From Acidobacteriota bacterium (GTDB lineage: Bacteria > Acidobacteriota > Terriglobia > Acidiferrales > UBA7541), in the NCBI GenBank assembly GCA_003224525.1, contig QHZB01000212.1, positions 24,173-88,172 on the forward strand: 64,000 bases of DNA. The letters are read 5' to 3'. The notes beneath the pieces were generated by a model. The model made no database searches, was not told where the DNA came from, and was given only the letters and a program-made list of their open reading frames with translations. How positions within the stretch are numbered: the first letter of the stretch is position 1; each line of letters starts with the position of its first letter. Position numbers and translations under genes: made by a program. Below are positions 37,610 through 46,455 of the stretch, piece after piece.

Positions 37610-37707
37610 GAGCGCGTGTATTATCGCTCAACTGCCGCGTGGCCGCACAGGACGGGACGAGAAATGACGGCTTATTTCGAGCACAGTTACATTGGCATGA
37701 ACACGGC

Positions 37708-39438
37708 ATGACATTTCCCGCCGAAGACCCCAACAGAATGGACGCTACCGCGGGATTTCGCGGGTGGCTGCTCGCGCTGGGCGTTTCCCTGGCGACGTCG
37801 TTGCTGGCGATCGCGCCTTTTTTTTGGATGGGGAACGCTTCGGGGCACGATTTCGGATTTCACGCGGCCTCCTGGTTGGACGTTGCGGGGCAGTGGAGAG
37901 AAGGGATCTTTTTTCCGCGGTGGACGGAGTGGGCGAACTACGGGTTTGGCGAGCCGCGGTTTATTTTTTATCCACCGCTGTCGTGGATGCTGGGGGCGGC
38001 GCTGGGCTTTGTGTTTCCGTGGAATGCCGTGCCGGGAATTTTCATCGTCATCGCGCAGACAATGGCGGGACTTTGTTTGTTTGCGCTGGCGCGGCGATCT
38101 CTGTCGGTGCGCGGGGCGCTCTTTGGCGCCGCGTGTTATGCGGGAAATCCCTATGCGCTGTTGATCGTTTACATGCGCAGTGATTTTGCGGAATTGCTGG
38201 CGTGCGCGCTGATGCCGTTGGTGGTGCTGACGGTGTTGCAACTATGCGAACCGCGGGAGCATCGCCGGCGTTACGCGCCTCGGGCGACGGCGTTCTTCGC
38301 GGTGGTGTTCGCAGCGGTCTGGCTTTGCAATGCGCCTGCCGGGGTGATGGCGAGCTACAGCGTGGCGATTATTTTTGCGTGCGCGGCCGTGTGGGAAAAA
38401 TCTTTGCGGCCGTTGTGGCGCGGCGCGGGCGGATTGGCGTTGGGTTTTGGATTGACGAGTTTTTATCTTCTGCCCGCGGCCTTCGAGCAGCGCTGGGTGA
38501 ATATCGCGCAGGCGCTTTCGTCAGGCTTGCAACCCTCGGACAACTTTCTCTACACCATGATCAACGATCCAGAGCATAACGTGTTCAATGGGATGGCCTC
38601 GAGCGTGGCGATCCTGCTCATGGTGATGACGGGGATCGCGGGGATTGCGGCGCACCGAGGAATTGCTGGGGAAAGGAAAAGCGGTGAGGCAAGACAACTG
38701 TGGCGCGTGCTACTGCTGCTCTCCGCGGCGGCGACGATTCTGATGATTCGCCCCAGTTCGGTTTTTTGGGAGCACCTTCCCAAGCTGCGCTTCGTTCAGT
38801 TTCCCTGGAGATGGATGGCCATCCTGGCGGTGCCGTATGGCTATTTCCTGGCGGCCGCGGTGGCCCGCCGGCGCCTGGGGTGGATCTGGGGCCCGGCCGT
38901 GATTGTGATTATTGGCGGAACAGCCACTTTTCTCGTTCGGAGCGCGTGGTGGGATTCCGAAGACATCCCGGTCTTGCAGGAAGCGATTGCGAAGGACCAG
39001 GGTTTTGAGGGTACAGACGAATACGATCCGGCGGGTGACGATCATTATAATTTGCCGGAAAAAGCGCCGCGCGTGCAGGTTCTCCCGGCCGAGGAATCAG
39101 GGGGAGGGACGCCGAAAGCGGAGATTCGTATCGAGCGATGGACCGCGGAAGAAAAAAACTTGAGTGTAGCTTCCGGTGAGCCCTTGAGAGTGGCGCTGCG
39201 ACTGCTCAACTGTCCAGCGTGGCGCGTGGAGGTGAACGGCAAAACAGTGACACCACAGCACGCGGAGACAAACGCGCAGATGATTCTGTCGCTCTCTCCG
39301 GGAACGCAGCGGATCACGGTACGGTTTGGGCGTACTTCGGATCGCAAATTGGGCCTGGTCATTTCCGTAGTGGCATTGCTGACGCTTCTTGCGCTCTTAA
39401 ACGCCGGGGGCCTGCGCCTTCTTTCCGCAAGCCCCTGA
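37708..39438 (+). CDS. Polytopic membrane protein, PTPS-related/YfhO-like (GT-C glycosyltransferase-like)
   Basis: GHDFGFH, FPRW..YGFGEPRFIFYPPL, QFPWRW, C-terminal YPAW-like NCPAWRVEVNG. Start uncertain (37639-37738). Confidence 0.78.
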   Translation: MTFPAEDPNRMDATAGFRGWLLALGVSLATSLLAIAPFFWMGNASGHDFGFHAASWLDVAGQWREGIFFPRWTEWANYGFGEPRFIFYPPLSWMLGAALGFVFPWNAVPGIFIVIAQTMAGLCLFALARRSLSVRGALFGAACYAGNPYALLIVYMRSDFAELLACALMPLVVLTVLQLCEPREHRRRYAPRATAFFAVVFAAVWLCNAPAGVMASYSVAIIFACAAVWEKSLRPLWRGAGGLALGFGLTSFYLLPAAFEQRWVNIAQALSSGLQPSDNFLYTMINDPEHNVFNGMASSVAILLMVMTGIAGIAAHRGIAGERKSGEARQLWRVLLLLSAAATILMIRPSSVFWEHLPKLRFVQFPWRWMAILAVPYGYFLAAAVARRRLGWIWGPAVIVIIGGTATFLVRSAWWDSEDIPVLQEAIAKDQGFEGTDEYDPAGDDHYNLPEKAPRVQVLPAEESGGGTPKAEIRIERWTAEEKNLSVASGEPLRVALRLLNCPAWRVEVNGKTVTPQHAETNAQMILSLSPGTQRITVRFGRTSDRKLGLVISVVALLTLLALLNAGGLRLLSASP

Positions 39439-39805: not shown

Positions 39806-40573
39806 TTAGTTCGCGCCCTTCTCGAGCGCCGCTTTTAGATGCACATTGCTCCCACTGCTAACCTTTAGCTTCTTTTCCCAAGGTTGGAAACCGGTTTTCT
39901 TCACGGAAACTGTGTGCTCACCTGCGGGCACATCGATGTCGGATGGTGTGTTGCCTACAAAGCTGCCATCCATTTCGATGTCAGCGCCGTCGGGAGTCGA
40001 TGTGACCGATAACTTCGCCGTCGTGGGAGTTGTGGCGGGTGCAGGAGCTGCAGGCGATTGTGAGGCTGCGGCTTTGCTCTGTGCTGCTGCTGCGGCTGCC
40101 GCGCGAATGACAGGGCCATGCGCGGTCCAGTCCTGGTCAATGGCCTCGCAGGCGGTCTGTACTGAGCCGCCGAGCGACAGGGTGGACTTGCTGACCACCG
40201 AGTCGCCGCTCACGCGGTTAAACACAGCAACCTTGTTCCTGTGAGTCAGGAATCCCTTCCCGCCCTCATGATCCAGGACGACGACATAATCGCCATTTGC
40301 CTGAATATTGTTAGTCACCACCTGCGGGCAGCGTTCACCGAAAGTCTTGATGATTTCAGCGGTTTGTGGACGTGCTCCGCCGTGTGTCTCACCGCCAAAA
40401 CCTCCGCTGGTCCCTCCACCGGCCCCACGCATTTCCCAAGATTGGCTGTCAGTGATAAACACTCGTGCTTTGTCTTGTGTGGCGGGCGGCTTTTGGTTGT
40501 CCTGAGCAGCCGCAATGGAAATGAATAGCGATAGGGATAGTAGAGATAGCGGGATCGAGATGGTTGTTTTCAT
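39806..40573 (-). CDS. Secreted PEGA domain protein
   Basis: GGAGG RBS, signal peptide, C-terminal VTSTPDGADIEMDG.FVG.TP..GEHTVSVKKTGF. Confidence 0.88.
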   Translation of the reverse strand: MKTTISIPLSLLSLSLFISIAAAQDNQKPPATQDKARVFITDSQSWEMRGAGGGTSGGFGGETHGGARPQTAEIIKTFGERCPQVVTNNIQANGDYVVVLDHEGGKGFLTHRNKVAVFNRVSGDSVVSKSTLSLGGSVQTACEAIDQDWTAHGPVIRAAAAAAAQSKAAASQSPAAPAPATTPTTAKLSVTSTPDGADIEMDGSFVGNTPSDIDVPAGEHTVSVKKTGFQPWEKKLKVSSGSNVHLKAALEKGAN

Positions 40574-40669
40574 CGGAACACCTCCTCTAGGTTATCTAGG
40601 TTACGGCAATGGTAGCATCTCTATGGCTCCTCGCTGTTTCTTTACCAGAGTGGAGCATGCGAAAAGTTA

Positions 40670-40715
40670 CTAGCGGCGATCGACGGTGGGGCGGCGGATG
40701 TCCTGGCCCAGCACT
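40670..40715 (-). repeat. Displaced copy of the phoU 3' end (direct repeat, att-like)
   Basis: 40672-40709 matches 41822-41859 at 36/38; encodes VLGQDIRRPTVDRR* versus VQGQDIRHPTVDRR*. Confidence 0.9.
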
Positions 40716-41639
40716 TCACTTCGGGGGATCAATTCCAAAGTCGAACAGTTTTCCCCGGTCACCGCCGGCATAAAAGAAGCAGTATTCTCCCGGTGGTATA
40801 GGCCCTTCGGGAGTGACCCTGTAAACCCCCGGGGCGAGTCTTTCGATTTTCAGTTCGACGGTATCCTTCGATTGTGTGCCAGACGAGCCTCCAAAAAGAT
40901 TGGCCTCGCCAACGACGAGTTCGCGCTCATTTTTCTTTGCCGAGAGTTTGGCCAGCACGAATTCGTTAGGGCTGGACGCACCGGCCCAAAACCAGACATT
41001 GCTCAGGCTATGTGATTTCTCTTCGAAGTAAAACCAGAACTCGGGATTGTCTTCAACCATTCGCAAACTCGCGCGGCCACCTCGAACGACGGCTTTCATC
41101 TTGACTTTCGCAATGCCAGAGGTCATGGCAGCGGCAAATACTCCGGCTGATTTTGCTCCCGAATAGACGGTGGGCTCGAGTGCCACCATCTCTTTGGCCG
41201 TGTTCTCCTTGGAGAGCCAGTAGACGCCTGCATCGTGAGGAGAGCGAGGATCATTCGGATCGGGCGGAGGCGAGTTCTTGGCTGCGTCAGCAGCAGTGTT
41301 GCTGGCGGCACCGGCTTCCACCATGGCCTGGATCACGGCATCACTGACACCCGCCGCCTTCAGCTTCATGATGTCGCCAATGGCGGTCTGAAAGCTGCAG
41401 TTCGACGTCTTGATCTTGCTGCTGATCAGCCCATCACCCAGCTTCAATTCAACCATTTTGGCAATCATCTCGTTCGTCAGAACTTCAACTGGAGCAGTTT
41501 GCGCGGGCGGGGTTTGGGCAGACGCTATTTGCGCCAGTCCGGCCAATCCTGATGTCATCGCGCAGCACACGATGCACGCGAATGCAAAGAGATGGAAACC
41601 AGCGGCTCCAGGAAAAAGCAAAGAGATAGTTGATCTCAT
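40716..41639 (-). CDS. Secreted hypothetical protein
   Basis: GGAGG RBS, signal-like N-terminus, helical LTNEMIAKMV..LKAAGVSDAVIQAM module, beta-rich C-terminus with PPGEYCF. Confidence 0.8.
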   Translation of the reverse strand: MRSTISLLFPGAAGFHLFAFACIVCCAMTSGLAGLAQIASAQTPPAQTAPVEVLTNEMIAKMVELKLGDGLISSKIKTSNCSFQTAIGDIMKLKAAGVSDAVIQAMVEAGAASNTAADAAKNSPPPDPNDPRSPHDAGVYWLSKENTAKEMVALEPTVYSGAKSAGVFAAAMTSGIAKVKMKAVVRGGRASLRMVEDNPEFWFYFEEKSHSLSNVWFWAGASSPNEFVLAKLSAKKNERELVVGEANLFGGSSGTQSKDTVELKIERLAPGVYRVTPEGPIPPGEYCFFYAGGDRGKLFDFGIDPPK

Positions 41640-41746
41640 CGGATCCTCCCGAGTCTTACTTCACGCGAGAAGCAGTGGGTTGAGAAAAGTAGTCGTCTAC
41701 CCTTGTGGTGAATGTCAATGGAAGACACCCCCTTGTCCGCGGAAAG

Positions 41747-41766
41747 GGTATTCCGATCGGAATACC
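41747..41766. promoter_or_regulatory. Perfect 20-bp palindrome
   Basis: GGTATTCCGATCGGAATACC equals its reverse complement; a minus-strand TTGACA lies at 41713-41718. Confidence 0.55.
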
Positions 41767-41819
41767 TCGACATGCATTGGACGGCACGAAGAGGGTTTCG
41801 GTTTCCTCTTGCGCCTAGG

Positions 41820-42485
41820 TCAGCGGCGATCGACGGTGGGATGGCGGATGTCCTGGCCCTGGACGAGGTAGATGACGTCTTCGGCGATGTTGGTGGCGTG
41901 GTCGCCGATGCGCTCGAGGTTCTTGGCGACGAGGATCAATTCGAACGCGGGAAAGACCACGCTGGAATCGCCCATCATGTAGGTGAGCAATTCACGGAAA
42001 ATCTGATCGCGGTAGTTGTCCACCCGATCGTCGGTGGCGAGGACGGTCTGCGCGAGTTCGACGTCGCGGCGGACGACGGCGTTGAGGGCGTTGCGAACCA
42101 TCTCCTCGGTGAGCTCGCTCATGCGCGGCAGATCGACGTAGGGCTTTACGCGCGGGTGGCGAAGGATGCGCAGAGCTCCCTGCGCGATGTTGACGGCCTG
42201 ATCGCCGATGCGCTCGAGATCGTTGTTGATGCGCGAGACCGCCAGGACGAAGCGGAGATCGATGGCCATGAGCTGGTGAAGCGCGAGAAGCTGAACGACG
42301 CGGTCGTCGATTTCCATCTGGAGCTCGTTGATGGCGTCTTCTTCCTCGAGGACGCGGTTGGCGAGCTGTTCGTCGGATTCCAGAACGGCGTGAACGGACT
42401 GGTGGACGGAGCGTTCCGCGAGGCTGCCCATCCAAAGCAGGCGCTCTTTCATCTCGTTCAGATCTTTTTCGAAATGGCGTTCCAT
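41820..42485 (-). CDS. phoU: Phosphate signalling protein PhoU
   Basis: INELQMEIDD, DLERIGDQAVNIA, NLERIGDHATNIAEDVIY. Confidence 0.96.
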   Translation of the reverse strand: MERHFEKDLNEMKERLLWMGSLAERSVHQSVHAVLESDEQLANRVLEEEDAINELQMEIDDRVVQLLALHQLMAIDLRFVLAVSRINNDLERIGDQAVNIAQGALRILRHPRVKPYVDLPRMSELTEEMVRNALNAVVRRDVELAQTVLATDDRVDNYRDQIFRELLTYMMGDSSVVFPAFELILVAKNLERIGDHATNIAEDVIYLVQGQDIRHPTVDRR

Positions 42486-42568: not shown

Positions 42569-43396
42569 TCAGCCGAAGCGGCCGGTGATGTAGGCCTCCG
42601 TGCGCGGATCACCGGGGGTGGTGAAGAGCTGCGGCGTGGGGCTGAACTCGATGAGCTGACCCGTGAGCAGGAAGGCGGTGAAGTCGCTGATGCGCGCGGC
42701 CTGCTGCATGTTGTGGGTAACGGTGACGATGGTGCAGAAATCCTTCAACTGCACGAGCAGCTCTTCGATTTTCGCGGTGCTGATGGGGTCGAGGGCCGAA
42801 CAGGGCTCGTCGAGAAGGAGCACTTCGGGCTCGACGGCGAGGGCCCGGGCAATGCACAAGCGCTGCTGCTGGCCGCCGGAAAGTTCGTAGGCGGACTTGT
42901 GGAGGTGGTCTTTCACTTCGTCCCAGAGCGCAGCGTGGCGCAGGCTTTTTTCGACGGCTTCGGAGATGGGGGCCTGGGAGCCGTTGATCCGCAGACCATA
43001 GGCAACGTTGTCGAAAATCGACTTGGGGAAAGGATTGGGGCGCTGGAAAACCATGCCGACGCGGCGGCGATACGAAGTAACGTCCTGCGTAAGGATGTTC
43101 TGGCCATCCAGAAGAATTTCGCCTTCCAAGCGGGCGCCGCGCACGATCTCGTACATGCGATTCAGGGTGCGAAGCAGAGTGGACTTGCCACAGCCGGAGG
43201 GACCAATGAGAGAGGTGACCTTGTTGGTGGCGATGCCCATGCTGACATCGAAGAGAGTCTGCTTGCTGCCATAAAAGAAATTGACCTTGGAAATGGTCAT
43301 GCGCATGGACAGGGCCGCGGACGTCTCTCGCGCCGCGGGACTGGTCGCGATGGGAGGTATGTTCACGGACAAAACTGGCCTCACAGAAGCGTGCAT
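42569..43396 (-). CDS. pstB: Phosphate ABC transporter ATPase
   Basis: [48 protein letters not shown]. Confidence 0.97.
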
Positions 43397-46267: not shown

Positions 46268-46331
46268 GCTTTATCTCCGTCTGAAACAACCGTCTTTAGT
46301 CTTTTTCCGGGAGTGGGAAGTATGTCCCGCG

Positions 46332-46352
46332 ATTGTTACGGCATTGTTACAA
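46332..46352 (-). promoter_or_regulatory. Pho-box-like direct repeat upstream of pstS
   Basis: ATTGTTAC at 46332 and 46343, 11-bp period. Confidence 0.7.
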
Positions 46353-46455
46353 CTGATTTACTGTTGCTTGAATCGTGAGACCCCTAAGTTCAACACCAGG
46401 ACCTACAGTAAGGCTCTTCGGATGAGGGATTTAGCGCGGTCGGACAGGCGGAGCA

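What the first reader, a model, noticed from the sequence alone, without database searches (positions are those of the whole stretch)
39806..41865. Two secreted-protein cassettes, each preceded by a copy of the phoU 3' end
Seen: the last codons of phoU (41822-41859) recur 1150 bp downstream (40672-40709, 36/38 identical, both ending at a stop codon). The copy starts right after the stop of the 40716-41639 gene. The two cargo genes also share their start region: TCCGATGAGATCAACTATCTC versus TCCGATGAAAACAACCATCTC (18/21), both behind GGAGG, giving MRSTIS / MKTTIS, yet I see no similarity in the mature proteins. Layout is phoU-[tail]-geneA-[tail']-geneB. Established: site-specific elements that integrate in a gene's 3' end duplicate that end as attL/attR. 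Inference: phoU is an integrase-less, reusable insertion site for single secreted-protein cassettes, or an old duplication whose bodies were swapped.
Basis: partly seen in the sequence, partly recalled or inferred. Interest (0 to 1): 0.72.

Follow-up and report, generated by a model that had tools for sequence, protein, structure and literature searches.

The report
Orphaned phoU end marks old insertion
The 43-base copy of the end of phoU is a real but ordinary recombination scar: it is the stranded original end of phoU, left behind when a 1.15-kb piece carrying its own phoU end and one secreted-protein gene was recombined in front of an older phoU-neighbour gene at a variable spot of the chromosome.

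Summary
The repeat is real. Window 40672-40714 matches 41822-41864 at 39/43. It is the only such pair in the 6.5-Mb genome, and seven independent metagenome contigs show the same layout.

The copy is not an attachment site in front of a second cassette. Together with the spacer behind it and geneB (PEGA-domain protein), it lines up base for base with "phoU end (stop TAG) - spacer - geneB" in relatives that lack geneA. The functional phoU end (stop TGA), the 180-nt spacer IGR1 and geneA form a discrete 1.15-kb block. In other relatives that block follows phoU alone.

All predicted alleles exist: empty, geneA only, geneB only, and both genes with the stub. There are also decaying forms, with geneA deleted, truncated or frameshifted.

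The geneB tree fits one old event followed by homologous exchange and losses. I found no recombinase on the 93-kb contig. No other cargo carries a stub. Only 1 of 127 genus genomes with a detectable tail has a local duplicate, and no other gene-end duplication of this kind exists in the genome.

Best reading: 3'-end displacement by general recombination, either a homologous anchor plus an illegitimate joint or a single crossover of a circularised fragment, at a hotspot between convergent genes. This is ordinary. The idea of an integrase-less reusable site is only weakly alive.

The parts
42569..43396 (-). pstB, last ABC gene of pstSCAB. It is part of the conserved upstream 'anchor' shared by all alleles.
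   Evidence: ORF list. ABC_tran in the equivalent genes of related contigs. pstB-phoU is 80-95% nt identical among alleles.
41820..42485 (-). phoU (221 aa), intact, stop TGA.
   Evidence: Pfam PF01895, E 2e-48. 89-99% aa identity to relatives.
41822..41864 (-). Repeat copy 1: the functional 3' end of phoU (nt ~622-664).
40711..41866 (-). The 1.15-kb block: phoU end with TGA, then IGR1, geneA and a short spacer. It is found as one unit, at about 91% identity, in other contexts.
   Evidence: blastn boundaries against L100, L099, L102 and L178. The same phoU(TGA)-IGR1-geneA colinearity is seen in L081, L082, L103, L109 and L179.
41640..41819 (-). IGR1, the 180-nt spacer that always accompanies geneA. 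It contains the perfect palindrome GGTATTCCGATCGGAATACC at 41747-41766.
   Evidence: Alignment of nine alleles. RNA fold z = -1.9, not significant. No Rfam family above threshold.
40716..41639 (-). geneA, 307 aa. N-terminal hydrophobic helix (signal or anchor), a small helical domain and a C-terminal beta-sandwich. Function unknown.
   Evidence: No Pfam hit. AlphaFold2 mean pLDDT 77. No PDB fold match with E <= 0.001. 345 homologues; those at 75% identity or more lie next to a phoU end where the upstream sequence is held, and those at 65% or less lie elsewhere.
40670..40714 (-). Repeat copy 2 (tail'): the orphaned 3' end of phoU from the older phoU-geneB junction, with relic stop TAG at 40670-40672 and a His->Arg change. 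It is not in geneA's reading frame.
   Evidence: It is colinear, together with IGR2 and geneB, with the phoU end (TAG), spacer and geneB of L083-87, L091, L093, L094 and L095.
40574..40669 (-). IGR2, the original phoU-geneB spacer with the geneB RBS. It has a lineage-specific 9-nt tandem duplication, TAACCTAGA x2, at 40586-40603.
   Evidence: Alignments
39806..40573 (-). geneB, 255 aa. Signal peptide, a conserved N-terminal domain of unknown fold, an Ala/Pro linker and a C-terminal PEGA domain.
   Evidence: Pfam PEGA, E 1.3e-17. AlphaFold2 is confident only in the PEGA part. It sits directly behind phoU in five other species or contig sets.
37639..39438 (+). Convergent 599-aa polytopic membrane protein (weak matches to PTPS_related / YfhO-like glycosyltransferase families). 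It is the conserved right border of the variable spot.
   Evidence: Pfam hits below cut-off. It is present 20-70 bp from the phoU stop in 8 of 17 congeners.

Best explanation
The copy of the phoU end is a recombination scar and not a working site.

An ancestor carried pstSCAB-phoU(stop TAG)-IGR2-geneB, followed by the convergent membrane-protein gene. A DNA segment from another allele, phoU(stop TGA)-IGR1-geneA, was then recombined in. Its left side paired with the conserved pst/phoU sequence. Its right end, a few bases after the geneA stop, was joined illegitimately to the resident phoU about 45 nt before its stop.

The incoming segment supplied a complete phoU end, so the resident last ~45 nt were pushed downstream as a non-coding stub. 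That stub is still attached to its original spacer and to geneB.

The same product would arise if a circularised [phoU end-IGR1-geneA] fragment integrated by a single crossover through the 43-50 nt of phoU homology. I cannot separate these two sub-routes.

Afterwards the two-gene allele was passed between related backgrounds by ordinary homologous recombination, and it is decaying in several lineages. The stub itself has no demonstrated function.

Shown: the colinearity of the stub with the old junction, the allele series, a single origin, and the absence of a recombinase on the contig. Inferred: the order of events and the recombination route.
For: 1. Stub, IGR2 and geneB align continuously with the phoU 3' end, spacer and geneB of geneB-only alleles, including the TAG stop (L083-87, L091, L093, L094, L095).
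2. All geneA-bearing alleles have phoU ending in TGA followed by the same IGR1 (WIN, L081, L082, L103, L109, L179 and others).
3. geneA-only alleles without a detectable stub exist. L109 and L103 score no better than shuffles against the tail. The post-geneA flank of L179 has no significant match to phoU, and blastn finds no second tail copy in it.
4. Empty sites exist in 8 of 17 congeners.
5. The block has discrete limits, window 40711-41866, and occurs as a unit elsewhere.
6. On the geneB tree every stub-bearing allele falls in one 100/100 clade. The variant junction L105 nests next to the window type with 99/97 support, so the shared breakpoint is by descent.
7. Decay series: L088/89/92 keep the first 150 nt of IGR1, then the stub, IGR2 and geneB, with geneA deleted. 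L154 has an internal geneA deletion. L106/107 have a frameshift.
8. The window's flanks are closest to L095 (95% nt over pstB-phoU; glyc599 89% aa). Its geneB, however, is only 78% identical to L095's, against 91-96% to other two-gene alleles. That indicates allelic exchange by homologous recombination.
9. There is no tyrosine or serine recombinase on contig C334. A scan of G000 for short direct repeats up to 6 kb apart found no other clear gene-end duplication of this kind. Only G000 among 127 genus genomes with a tail match has two nearby copies. The tail has no match in viral contigs.
10. Precedents: homology-facilitated illegitimate recombination that displaces old 3' ends downstream (PMC5361080), and single-crossover integration that duplicates the homologous segment (PMC3240628).
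Against: - The polarity (gain vs loss) cannot be proven. Recombination between stub and true end would regenerate a perfect geneB-only allele, and the pstB-phoU and geneB trees disagree.
- No microhomology at the illegitimate joint can be demonstrated, because no donor with the exact downstream sequence is known.
- The right end of the block (...GAAGTGA(A)GTGC) is identical in contexts that continue with different DNA. The window type continues with phoU nt 622-666, the L100/L178 type with phoU nt 411-466, and L170 with other sequence. Purely random illegitimate joints do not predict this. It could point to circular intermediates or to a special end.
Confidence: 0.74

Rival explanations
1. Site-specific, integrase-less cassette insertion. 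The 1.15-kb geneA unit is a mobilisable circle whose attP mimics the phoU 3' end. A recombinase encoded elsewhere integrates it into phoU, which gives attL and attR. The site can be reused for further cassettes.
For: - The layout is what integration into a gene's 3' end produces. The block carries its own phoU end, so the gene stays intact.
- The block has sharp limits and occurs in at least three other contexts, starting at or near the phoU-end sequence and ending at the same ...GTGC.
- The genome has 35 tyrosine-recombinase matches elsewhere. It also holds integrase-less mini-islands flanked by tRNA-end repeats.
Against: - No recombinase on the 93-kb contig or in any related locus next to the block.
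- Only one cargo (geneA) is ever linked to a stub, and seven other cargoes at the spot have none.
- 1 of 127 genus genomes has the local duplicate.
- The left limit of the phoU-derived part varies in the 'free' copies, at about 40, 52 and 150 nt.
- The copies differ at the stop codon in all alleles.
- Both junction variants trace to one event.
- A bona fide island in the same genome shows what a real case looks like: a 63-nt, 100% identical repeat plus an integrase (C391).
Confidence: 0.08
2. The stub is kept because it works, for example as part of a terminator or regulatory RNA between geneA and geneB, or as a homology arm that lets the block re-enter phoU loci of relatives.
For: - The stub is 95% identical between the window and L082, while IGR2 is about 80% identical. 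With only 40 nt this is not significant.
- The 'free' blocks keep a phoU end at their left side.
Against: - The stub has lost its stop in L082 (TAG->CAG). It has a 1-nt deletion in L106/107, is 22% diverged in L105/L088, and is reduced to 13 nt in L081.
- No terminator-like or Rfam feature lies at the stub.
Confidence: 0.06
3. An old tandem duplication of [phoU end-spacer-gene] whose two gene bodies were later swapped or diverged beyond recognition.
For: The 18/21 identity around the two start codons. Two of only nine GGAG-N-YCCGATGA starts in the genome are these neighbours.
Against: - The proteins are unrelated and the spacers do not align.
- Each gene sits alone behind phoU with its own spacer in relatives.
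- The start similarity falls to 11-13/21 in geneA-only alleles.
Confidence: 0.03
4. Assembly artefact: a collapsed or chimeric join at a short repeat.
For: Metagenome-derived assembly in 516 contigs. Related contigs often break near the phoU end (L101, L102).
Against: The identical arrangement is present in seven contigs from independent samples and assemblers, and diverged versions of the same junction occur in L082, L105, L106/107 and L154.
Confidence: 0.01

Closest known systems
Homology-facilitated illegitimate recombination and '3'-end / C-terminal displacement', as described for T6SS effector-immunity arrays and for Rhs/CDI loci with strings of orphaned 3' regions (PMC5361080 and the work it cites).
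   Same: A conserved upstream gene serves as the homologous anchor. The incoming module brings its own version of the gene end. The resident 3' end and its downstream partner gene are pushed downstream and kept as an orphan. The result is arrays that record the order of arrivals, with no dedicated recombinase.
   Different: Here the anchor is a housekeeping regulator (phoU) and not a polymorphic toxin. The stub is only ~45 nt and non-coding. There is a single displacement, not a series. The cargo genes are secreted proteins of unknown function with no toxin-immunity logic. The donor-recipient joint has not been reproduced experimentally.
Campbell-type single-crossover integration of a circular molecule, which duplicates the homologous segment (PMC3240628: 56 of 60 Lac- recombinants scored by PCR carried such a duplication; in the 14 sequenced it measured 109-950 bp).
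   Same: The product is a direct repeat of the shared segment on both sides of the inserted DNA, exactly as seen here. It also offers a way back by recombination between the repeats.
   Different: The shared segment here is only 43-50 nt. No plasmid or circle is known. The repeats already differ at the stop codon in every allele.
Integrative islands in the 3' end of tRNA or protein genes (tyrosine-recombinase attL/attR duplications). Example in this same genome: C391:687-6443.
   Same: Direct repeat of a gene's 3' end on both sides of foreign DNA, with the target gene kept intact.
   Different: The classical case has an integrase at one end and identical repeats: 63/63 nt and a 442-aa integrase in C391. 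The phoU case has neither, and the site is not reused by other cargo.
Integron gene cassettes
   Same: Single-gene units added next to a fixed point, pushing older units downstream.
   Different: No intI. No attC-like inverted repeat at the unit boundary. The units carry their own spacers and promoter-side DNA. Only one insertion is seen.

Membership tests
Site-specific integrative element (attL/attR duplication of a gene's 3' end) | A recombinase (tyrosine or serine) encoded in or beside the element | tested here: not met
   No PF00589 or PF00239 match on contig C334 (93 kb), while the genome has 35 and 3 matches elsewhere. None appears in the gene tables of related loci.
Site-specific integrative element (attL/attR duplication of a gene's 3' end) | The same attachment sequence is used repeatedly, by different cargo or in many genomes | tested here: not met
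   Seven other cargoes at the spot have no tail copy. 1 of 127 genus genomes with a detectable tail has a local second copy. All stub-bearing alleles trace to one clade.
Site-specific integrative element (attL/attR duplication of a gene's 3' end) | Repeats identical at the crossover core, and element ends fixed | tested here: inconclusive
   39/43 identity, with TGA vs TAG in all alleles. The right end is fixed at ...GTGC, but the phoU-derived left part varies between 40, 52 and 150 nt.
Site-specific integrative element (attL/attR duplication of a gene's 3' end) | Excised circular form and regenerated empty site within one population | not testable with these tools
Homology-facilitated illegitimate recombination / 3'-end displacement scar | A conserved homologous anchor on one side only | tested here: met
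   pstB-phoU is alignable at 80-95% nt in all alleles. Downstream of the block the alleles differ.
Homology-facilitated illegitimate recombination / 3'-end displacement scar | The displaced resident 3' end is still joined to its original downstream DNA | tested here: met
   Stub, IGR2 and geneB are colinear with phoU(TAG), spacer and geneB of geneB-only alleles.
Homology-facilitated illegitimate recombination / 3'-end displacement scar | Existence of a donor-type allele (anchor plus incoming module, no stub) and a recipient-type allele | tested here: met
   Donor type: L109, L179, L103. Recipient type: L083-87, L091, L093-95.
Homology-facilitated illegitimate recombination / 3'-end displacement scar | Short microhomology at the illegitimate joint | tested here: inconclusive
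   The joint reads TGA-AGTGCT-GGGCCAGG, against GTCCAG-GGCCAGG in phoU. The donor sequence beyond GTGC is unknown.
Integron cassette array | intI integrase, attI, and attC hairpins at cassette ends | tested here: not met
   No tyrosine recombinase on the contig. No inverted repeat at the unit boundaries.

The most novel reading that the evidence does not exclude
The 1.15-kb [phoU end-IGR1-geneA] block is a small, enzyme-less 'hitch-hiking' module. Because it carries a copy of the end of a universal, conserved gene, it can circularise and re-enter the phoU locus of any relative through that short homology arm, or land elsewhere illegitimately. That would explain its fixed right end, the circularly permuted phoU fragments around it in L178/L100, and its presence in at least three unrelated contexts.
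Probability: 0.1. Interest if true: 0.55.

Novelty: new member of a known kind. Interest (0 to 1): 0.22.

Why it matters
The main value is as a caution and a clean example. A duplicated gene end next to a small gene looks like an attachment site. Here the comparative series (empty, A-only, B-only, A+stub+B, and decaying forms) shows it to be the footprint of one ordinary recombination event at a variable spot between convergent genes.

It documents 3'-end displacement outside toxin loci, in uncultured soil Acidobacteriota. It also shows that two secreted proteins of unknown function, one with a PEGA domain, are recurrent accessory neighbours of the pst-phoU operon, which may be worth testing for a link to phosphate limitation.

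It does not open a new mechanism.

Tried and rejected
- Alignment of IGR1 with IGR2, and BLASTP of geneA against geneB: no homology. This rejects tandem duplication.
- Rfam and promoter/terminator scans of 39.4-42.6 kb. There was one sub-threshold HgcE hit antisense to phoU, which is chance. The two terminator-like hairpins lie inside geneA, and shuffles give 3.3.
- RNA fold of IGR1: z = -1.9, not significant.
- Search for Pho-box-like GTAACA-N5-GTAACA. It is found only upstream of pstS (46323-46361), not in IGR1 or IGR2.
- Search for stub relics after geneA in geneA-only alleles. L103 and L109 give nothing above shuffles. L081 has a 13-nt exact match (5 of 2000 shuffles).
- Test whether the junction spacers of L105/L088 derive from upstream phoU sequence: not significant. 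The idea of one long relic eroded differently therefore stays unproven.
- Attempt to find an empty site for the 'free' copies by blasting the flanks of L099, L100, L170 and L178 against G000. Only the right flank of L100 is syntenic (C168:69664-71204). The left flanks are not, so no empty site could be defined.
- From memory I took the ORF fragment right of the L099 block to be the C-terminus of a large serine recombinase. Pfam, PHROGs and tblastn against G000 gave no support, so I dropped it.
- Sliding-window identity along pstB-phoU to find the left crossover: no clear breakpoint.
- Fold search of the geneA model against the PDB: only generic Ig-like beta-sandwich matches with E > 0.001.
- The geneB N-domain model was too poor to search.
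Full report
**Observation**

On the minus strand the window carries pstS-pstC-pstA-pstB (to 43396), phoU (41820-42485; Pfam PhoU, E 2e-48), a 307-aa gene with no Pfam match (geneA, 40716-41639) and a 255-aa gene with a C-terminal PEGA domain (geneB, 39806-40573). A 599-aa polytopic membrane protein converges from the plus strand (37639-39438).

- The last 43 nt of phoU (41822-41864) recur at 40672-40714 at 91% identity (39/43), spacing 1150 nt.
- The 37-nt core occurs twice in the window against 0 expected, and twice in the whole 6.47-Mb assembly.
- The true end stops with TGA and the copy with TAG. The copy starts within six bases of the geneA stop.
- The 18/21 identity around the two start codons is also as described.
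- The two proteins are unrelated (BLASTP E = 2.1), and the two spacers, IGR1 (180 nt) and IGR2 (96 nt), do not align.
- Seven contigs from independent metagenome assemblies carry the same order at 99-100% identity: L077-L080, L098, L104 and L171. It is therefore not an assembly artefact.

**The site is a variable spot**

I looked at 17 other species of the same genus (GTDB representatives).

| State between phoU and the convergent gene | Species |
|---|---|
| 20-70 bp, empty | 8 |
| 189 and 425 bp without an ORF | 2 |
| 1-8 kb of unrelated cargo in either orientation | 7 |

None of them has geneA, geneB or a second copy of the phoU end.

In a wider sample of 200 species of the genus:
- geneB orthologues occur in 4;
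- close geneA orthologues occur in none;
- of 127 genomes with a recognisable phoU end, only this one has two nearby copies. The two other genomes with two matches simply have two complete phoU genes.

**What the copy is**

Metagenome and MAG contigs supply the closer relatives.

- In L083-L087, L091, L093, L094 and L095, phoU is followed directly by geneB (78-89% aa identity). Their phoU ends in TAG (TAA in L094). The 86-95-nt spacer behind it aligns base for base with the window's copy plus IGR2...CGCCGCTAG|TA(A/C)CTTTTCG(C/T)A(T/C)GCTCCA.... The copy, IGR2 and geneB are thus the old phoU-geneB junction.
- Every allele that has geneA has phoU ending in TGA, followed by the same IGR1. This holds for the window, L081, L082, L103, L106/107, L109 and L179.
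- L109 and L179 (geneA 75-78%) are geneA-only alleles. In L109 a homologue of the convergent membrane-protein gene follows geneA; in L179 an unidentified convergent ORF follows it. L109 and L103 show no stub above shuffles. L179 shows no second tail copy and no phoU-derived flank.
- L081 keeps only a 13-nt exact remnant, CGACCGCCGCTAG (5 of 2000 shuffles).

**The geneA block is discrete**

blastn of the window region against other contigs shows homology that begins at the phoU end and stops four bases after the geneA stop (window 40711-41866), at about 91% identity. The contexts have nothing to do with pst.

- L100/101/102/108/110/L178: the block lies between a glyoxalase gene and small island genes (Rap1a-like, BrnT-like). 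In this genome, the homologue of that right flank sits next to a tyrosine-integrase fragment on another contig.
- L099: the block lies next to a dispersed tRNA-3'-end repeat.
- L170 is a further context.
- The phoU-derived left part is about 40, 52 or 150 nt long in these copies, so the left limit is not fixed.
- The right limit (...GAAGTGA(A)GTGC) is fixed. In the L100/L178 type it is followed by a 56-nt internal phoU fragment (nt 411-466; 0 of 1000 shuffles).
- In L178 the order is phoU ~519-666, IGR1, geneA, phoU 411-466. That is a circular permutation of one phoU-geneA fragment. I could not explain this fully. It is the main reason for keeping a circular-intermediate sub-route and a small probability for a more active module.

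**One event, then exchange and decay**

Two junction variants exist. The window type has a 6-nt spacer, AGTGCT, before the stub (window, L082, L104, L106/107, L154). L105 has a 29-nt spacer and a more diverged stub. L088/89/92 (a MAG labelled Candidatus Acidoferrum) have the first 150 nt of IGR1, the L105-type spacer, a degenerate stub, IGR2 and geneB. That is the two-gene allele with geneA deleted.

- On a tree of IGR2+geneB, all stub-bearing alleles fall in one clade (100/100). L105 is sister to the window group (99/97). L082, which has the window-type junction, lies outside together with the geneB-only L083 (81/88). The shared breakpoint in phoU is therefore best read as inherited from one event, not as repeated use of a site.
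- geneA is being lost repeatedly: complete deletion (L088), internal deletion (L154) and frameshift (L106/107). geneB-only alleles inside the clade (L083, L094) may be precise losses through recombination between stub and true end. This is an inference.
- The window's flanks are closest to L095 (pstB-phoU 95% nt, sister at 100/99; membrane protein 89% aa). Its geneB belongs to the other geneB clade (78% aa to L095, against 91-96% to two-gene alleles). The segment has therefore been exchanged between backgrounds by homologous recombination.

**Tests of the site-specific reading**

- No tyrosine or serine recombinase lies on the 93-kb contig, while the genome has 35 and 3 matches elsewhere.
- None was seen in the gene tables of the related loci.
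- The tail sequence has no match in the viral-contig collection.
- A scan of the genome for short direct repeats up to 6 kb apart, in which one copy closes a long ORF and the other does not, returns the phoU pair as the only clear case.
- The same genome offers a positive control: a 5.7-kb island on C391 flanked by a 63-nt, 100% identical tRNA-end repeat, with a 442-aa tyrosine integrase inside. The phoU pair lacks both hallmarks, and its two copies differ at the stop codon in every allele.

**The start-codon similarity**

The 18/21 match is real and unusual. Only nine GGAG-N-YCCGATGA starts exist in the genome, and two of them are these neighbours. However, geneA-only alleles match geneB at only 11-13 of 21 positions. 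At all six positions where the two-gene-type geneA start differs from the geneA-only type, it has the geneB base. A short conversion patch or chance could do this. It is not evidence of a shared cassette boundary, and I leave it unexplained.

**Mechanism**

The simplest account is 3'-end displacement.

1. A donor segment phoU(TGA)-IGR1-geneA pairs with the recipient through the conserved pst/phoU anchor.
2. Its non-homologous right end is joined illegitimately inside the recipient's phoU about 45 nt before the stop.
3. The recipient's last codons are stranded in front of their old neighbour.

This is the logic proposed for orphan 3' ends and immunity arrays in T6SS and Rhs loci under the name homology-facilitated illegitimate recombination (PMC5361080). 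A single crossover of a circularised fragment through the short phoU homology gives the same product. That route was the commoner outcome in an E. coli conjugation assay, where it duplicated 109-950 bp (PMC3240628). I give the general scar reading 0.74, the site-specific cassette reading 0.08, a functional stub 0.06, tandem duplication 0.03 and artefact 0.01.

**The cargo**

- geneA is predicted (AlphaFold2, mean pLDDT 77) to have an N-terminal hydrophobic helix, a small helical domain and a C-terminal beta-sandwich, without a significant PDB match.
- geneB has a signal peptide, a highly conserved N-terminal domain that did not model well, an Ala/Pro linker and a PEGA domain.
- Other alleles of the spot again carry PEGA-domain proteins and distant geneA-family members (L103, G093:C137). 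One congener fuses a geneA-type helical domain to a geneB-type core in a single 242-aa ORF. They look like interchangeable envelope or secreted accessory proteins.
- Any link to phosphate starvation is inference from position only. No Pho-box-like repeat precedes them.

**Verdict**

This is an ordinary recombination scar, a new instance of a known kind.

Noticed in passing
G007:C261:13629-14228 (minus strand; loci L059/L066): One 242-aa open frame in a congener joins a geneA-type N-terminal helical domain (39% identity to geneA residues 39-113) to a geneB-type core domain (56% to geneB residues 27-147). The domains of the two neighbours therefore also occur fused.
   Followed up: no
L154:343-840; L106:307-1236 and L107; L088:3722-4000: geneA is decaying in several two-gene alleles. 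L154 has an internal deletion of about residues 38-177. L106/L107 have a frameshift near residue 270. L088/89/92 have a complete deletion that leaves 150 nt of IGR1 and the stub.
   Followed up: partly
window 40586-40603: A 9-nt tandem duplication, TAACCTAGA TAACCTAGA, lies just upstream of the geneB ribosome-binding site. It is present in the window lineage but not in L154, and L104 has a variant.
   Followed up: no
window 41747-41766: A perfect 20-nt palindrome, GGTATTCCGATCGGAATACC, lies in IGR1. It is kept, with G-U-compatible changes, in all geneA-bearing alleles and in the geneA-deleted L088. It could be a terminator-like hairpin or a protein-binding site.
   Followed up: partly
L093 (DASQYT010000427.1) and L095 (DATHIB010000017.1): MAGs named Candidatus Elarobacter sp. 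and Candidatus Limnocylindria bacterium in NCBI carry a pstB-phoU region that is about 85-95% nt identical to this Acidobacteriota genome. GTDB places them in the same genus, so the NCBI names look wrong.
   Followed up: partly
G000 contigs C391:687-6443, C515:8437-9825, C225:421-2575, C131 (three copies): These are classical tRNA-3'-end duplications. C391 is a 5.7-kb island with a 63-nt perfect repeat and a 442-aa tyrosine integrase. C515 (1.3 kb) and C225 (2.1 kb) are integrase-less mini-islands flanked by 51-nt tRNA-end repeats; the C515 island carries a BrnT/BrnA-like toxin-antitoxin pair and the C225 ORFs were not identified.
   Followed up: partly
No such boxes lie in front of geneA or geneB.
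   Followed up: partly
G093:C137 (L184) vs G093:C226 (L180); also L103:2797-3924: One MAG holds two phoU contigs with different cargo at the hotspot, which suggests strain mixture. One has geneB. The other has a different PEGA-domain protein plus a distant geneA-family gene (28% identity) on the opposite strand. The same pair follows geneA in L103.
   Followed up: no
L100:4928-4983, L178:320-470 and 1575-1630: Away from the pst operon, the geneA block is flanked by phoU fragments in circularly permuted order (phoU ~519-666 before it, phoU 411-466 after it). It lies inside an island-like region whose homologue in G000 (C168:69664-71204) adjoins a tyrosine-integrase fragment (C168:69234-69401).
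   Followed up: partly
window 41855-41984 (+): A sub-threshold Rfam hit to the archaeal HgcE RNA (31.8 bits against a gathering score of 50), antisense to phoU. I regard it as chance.
   Followed up: no
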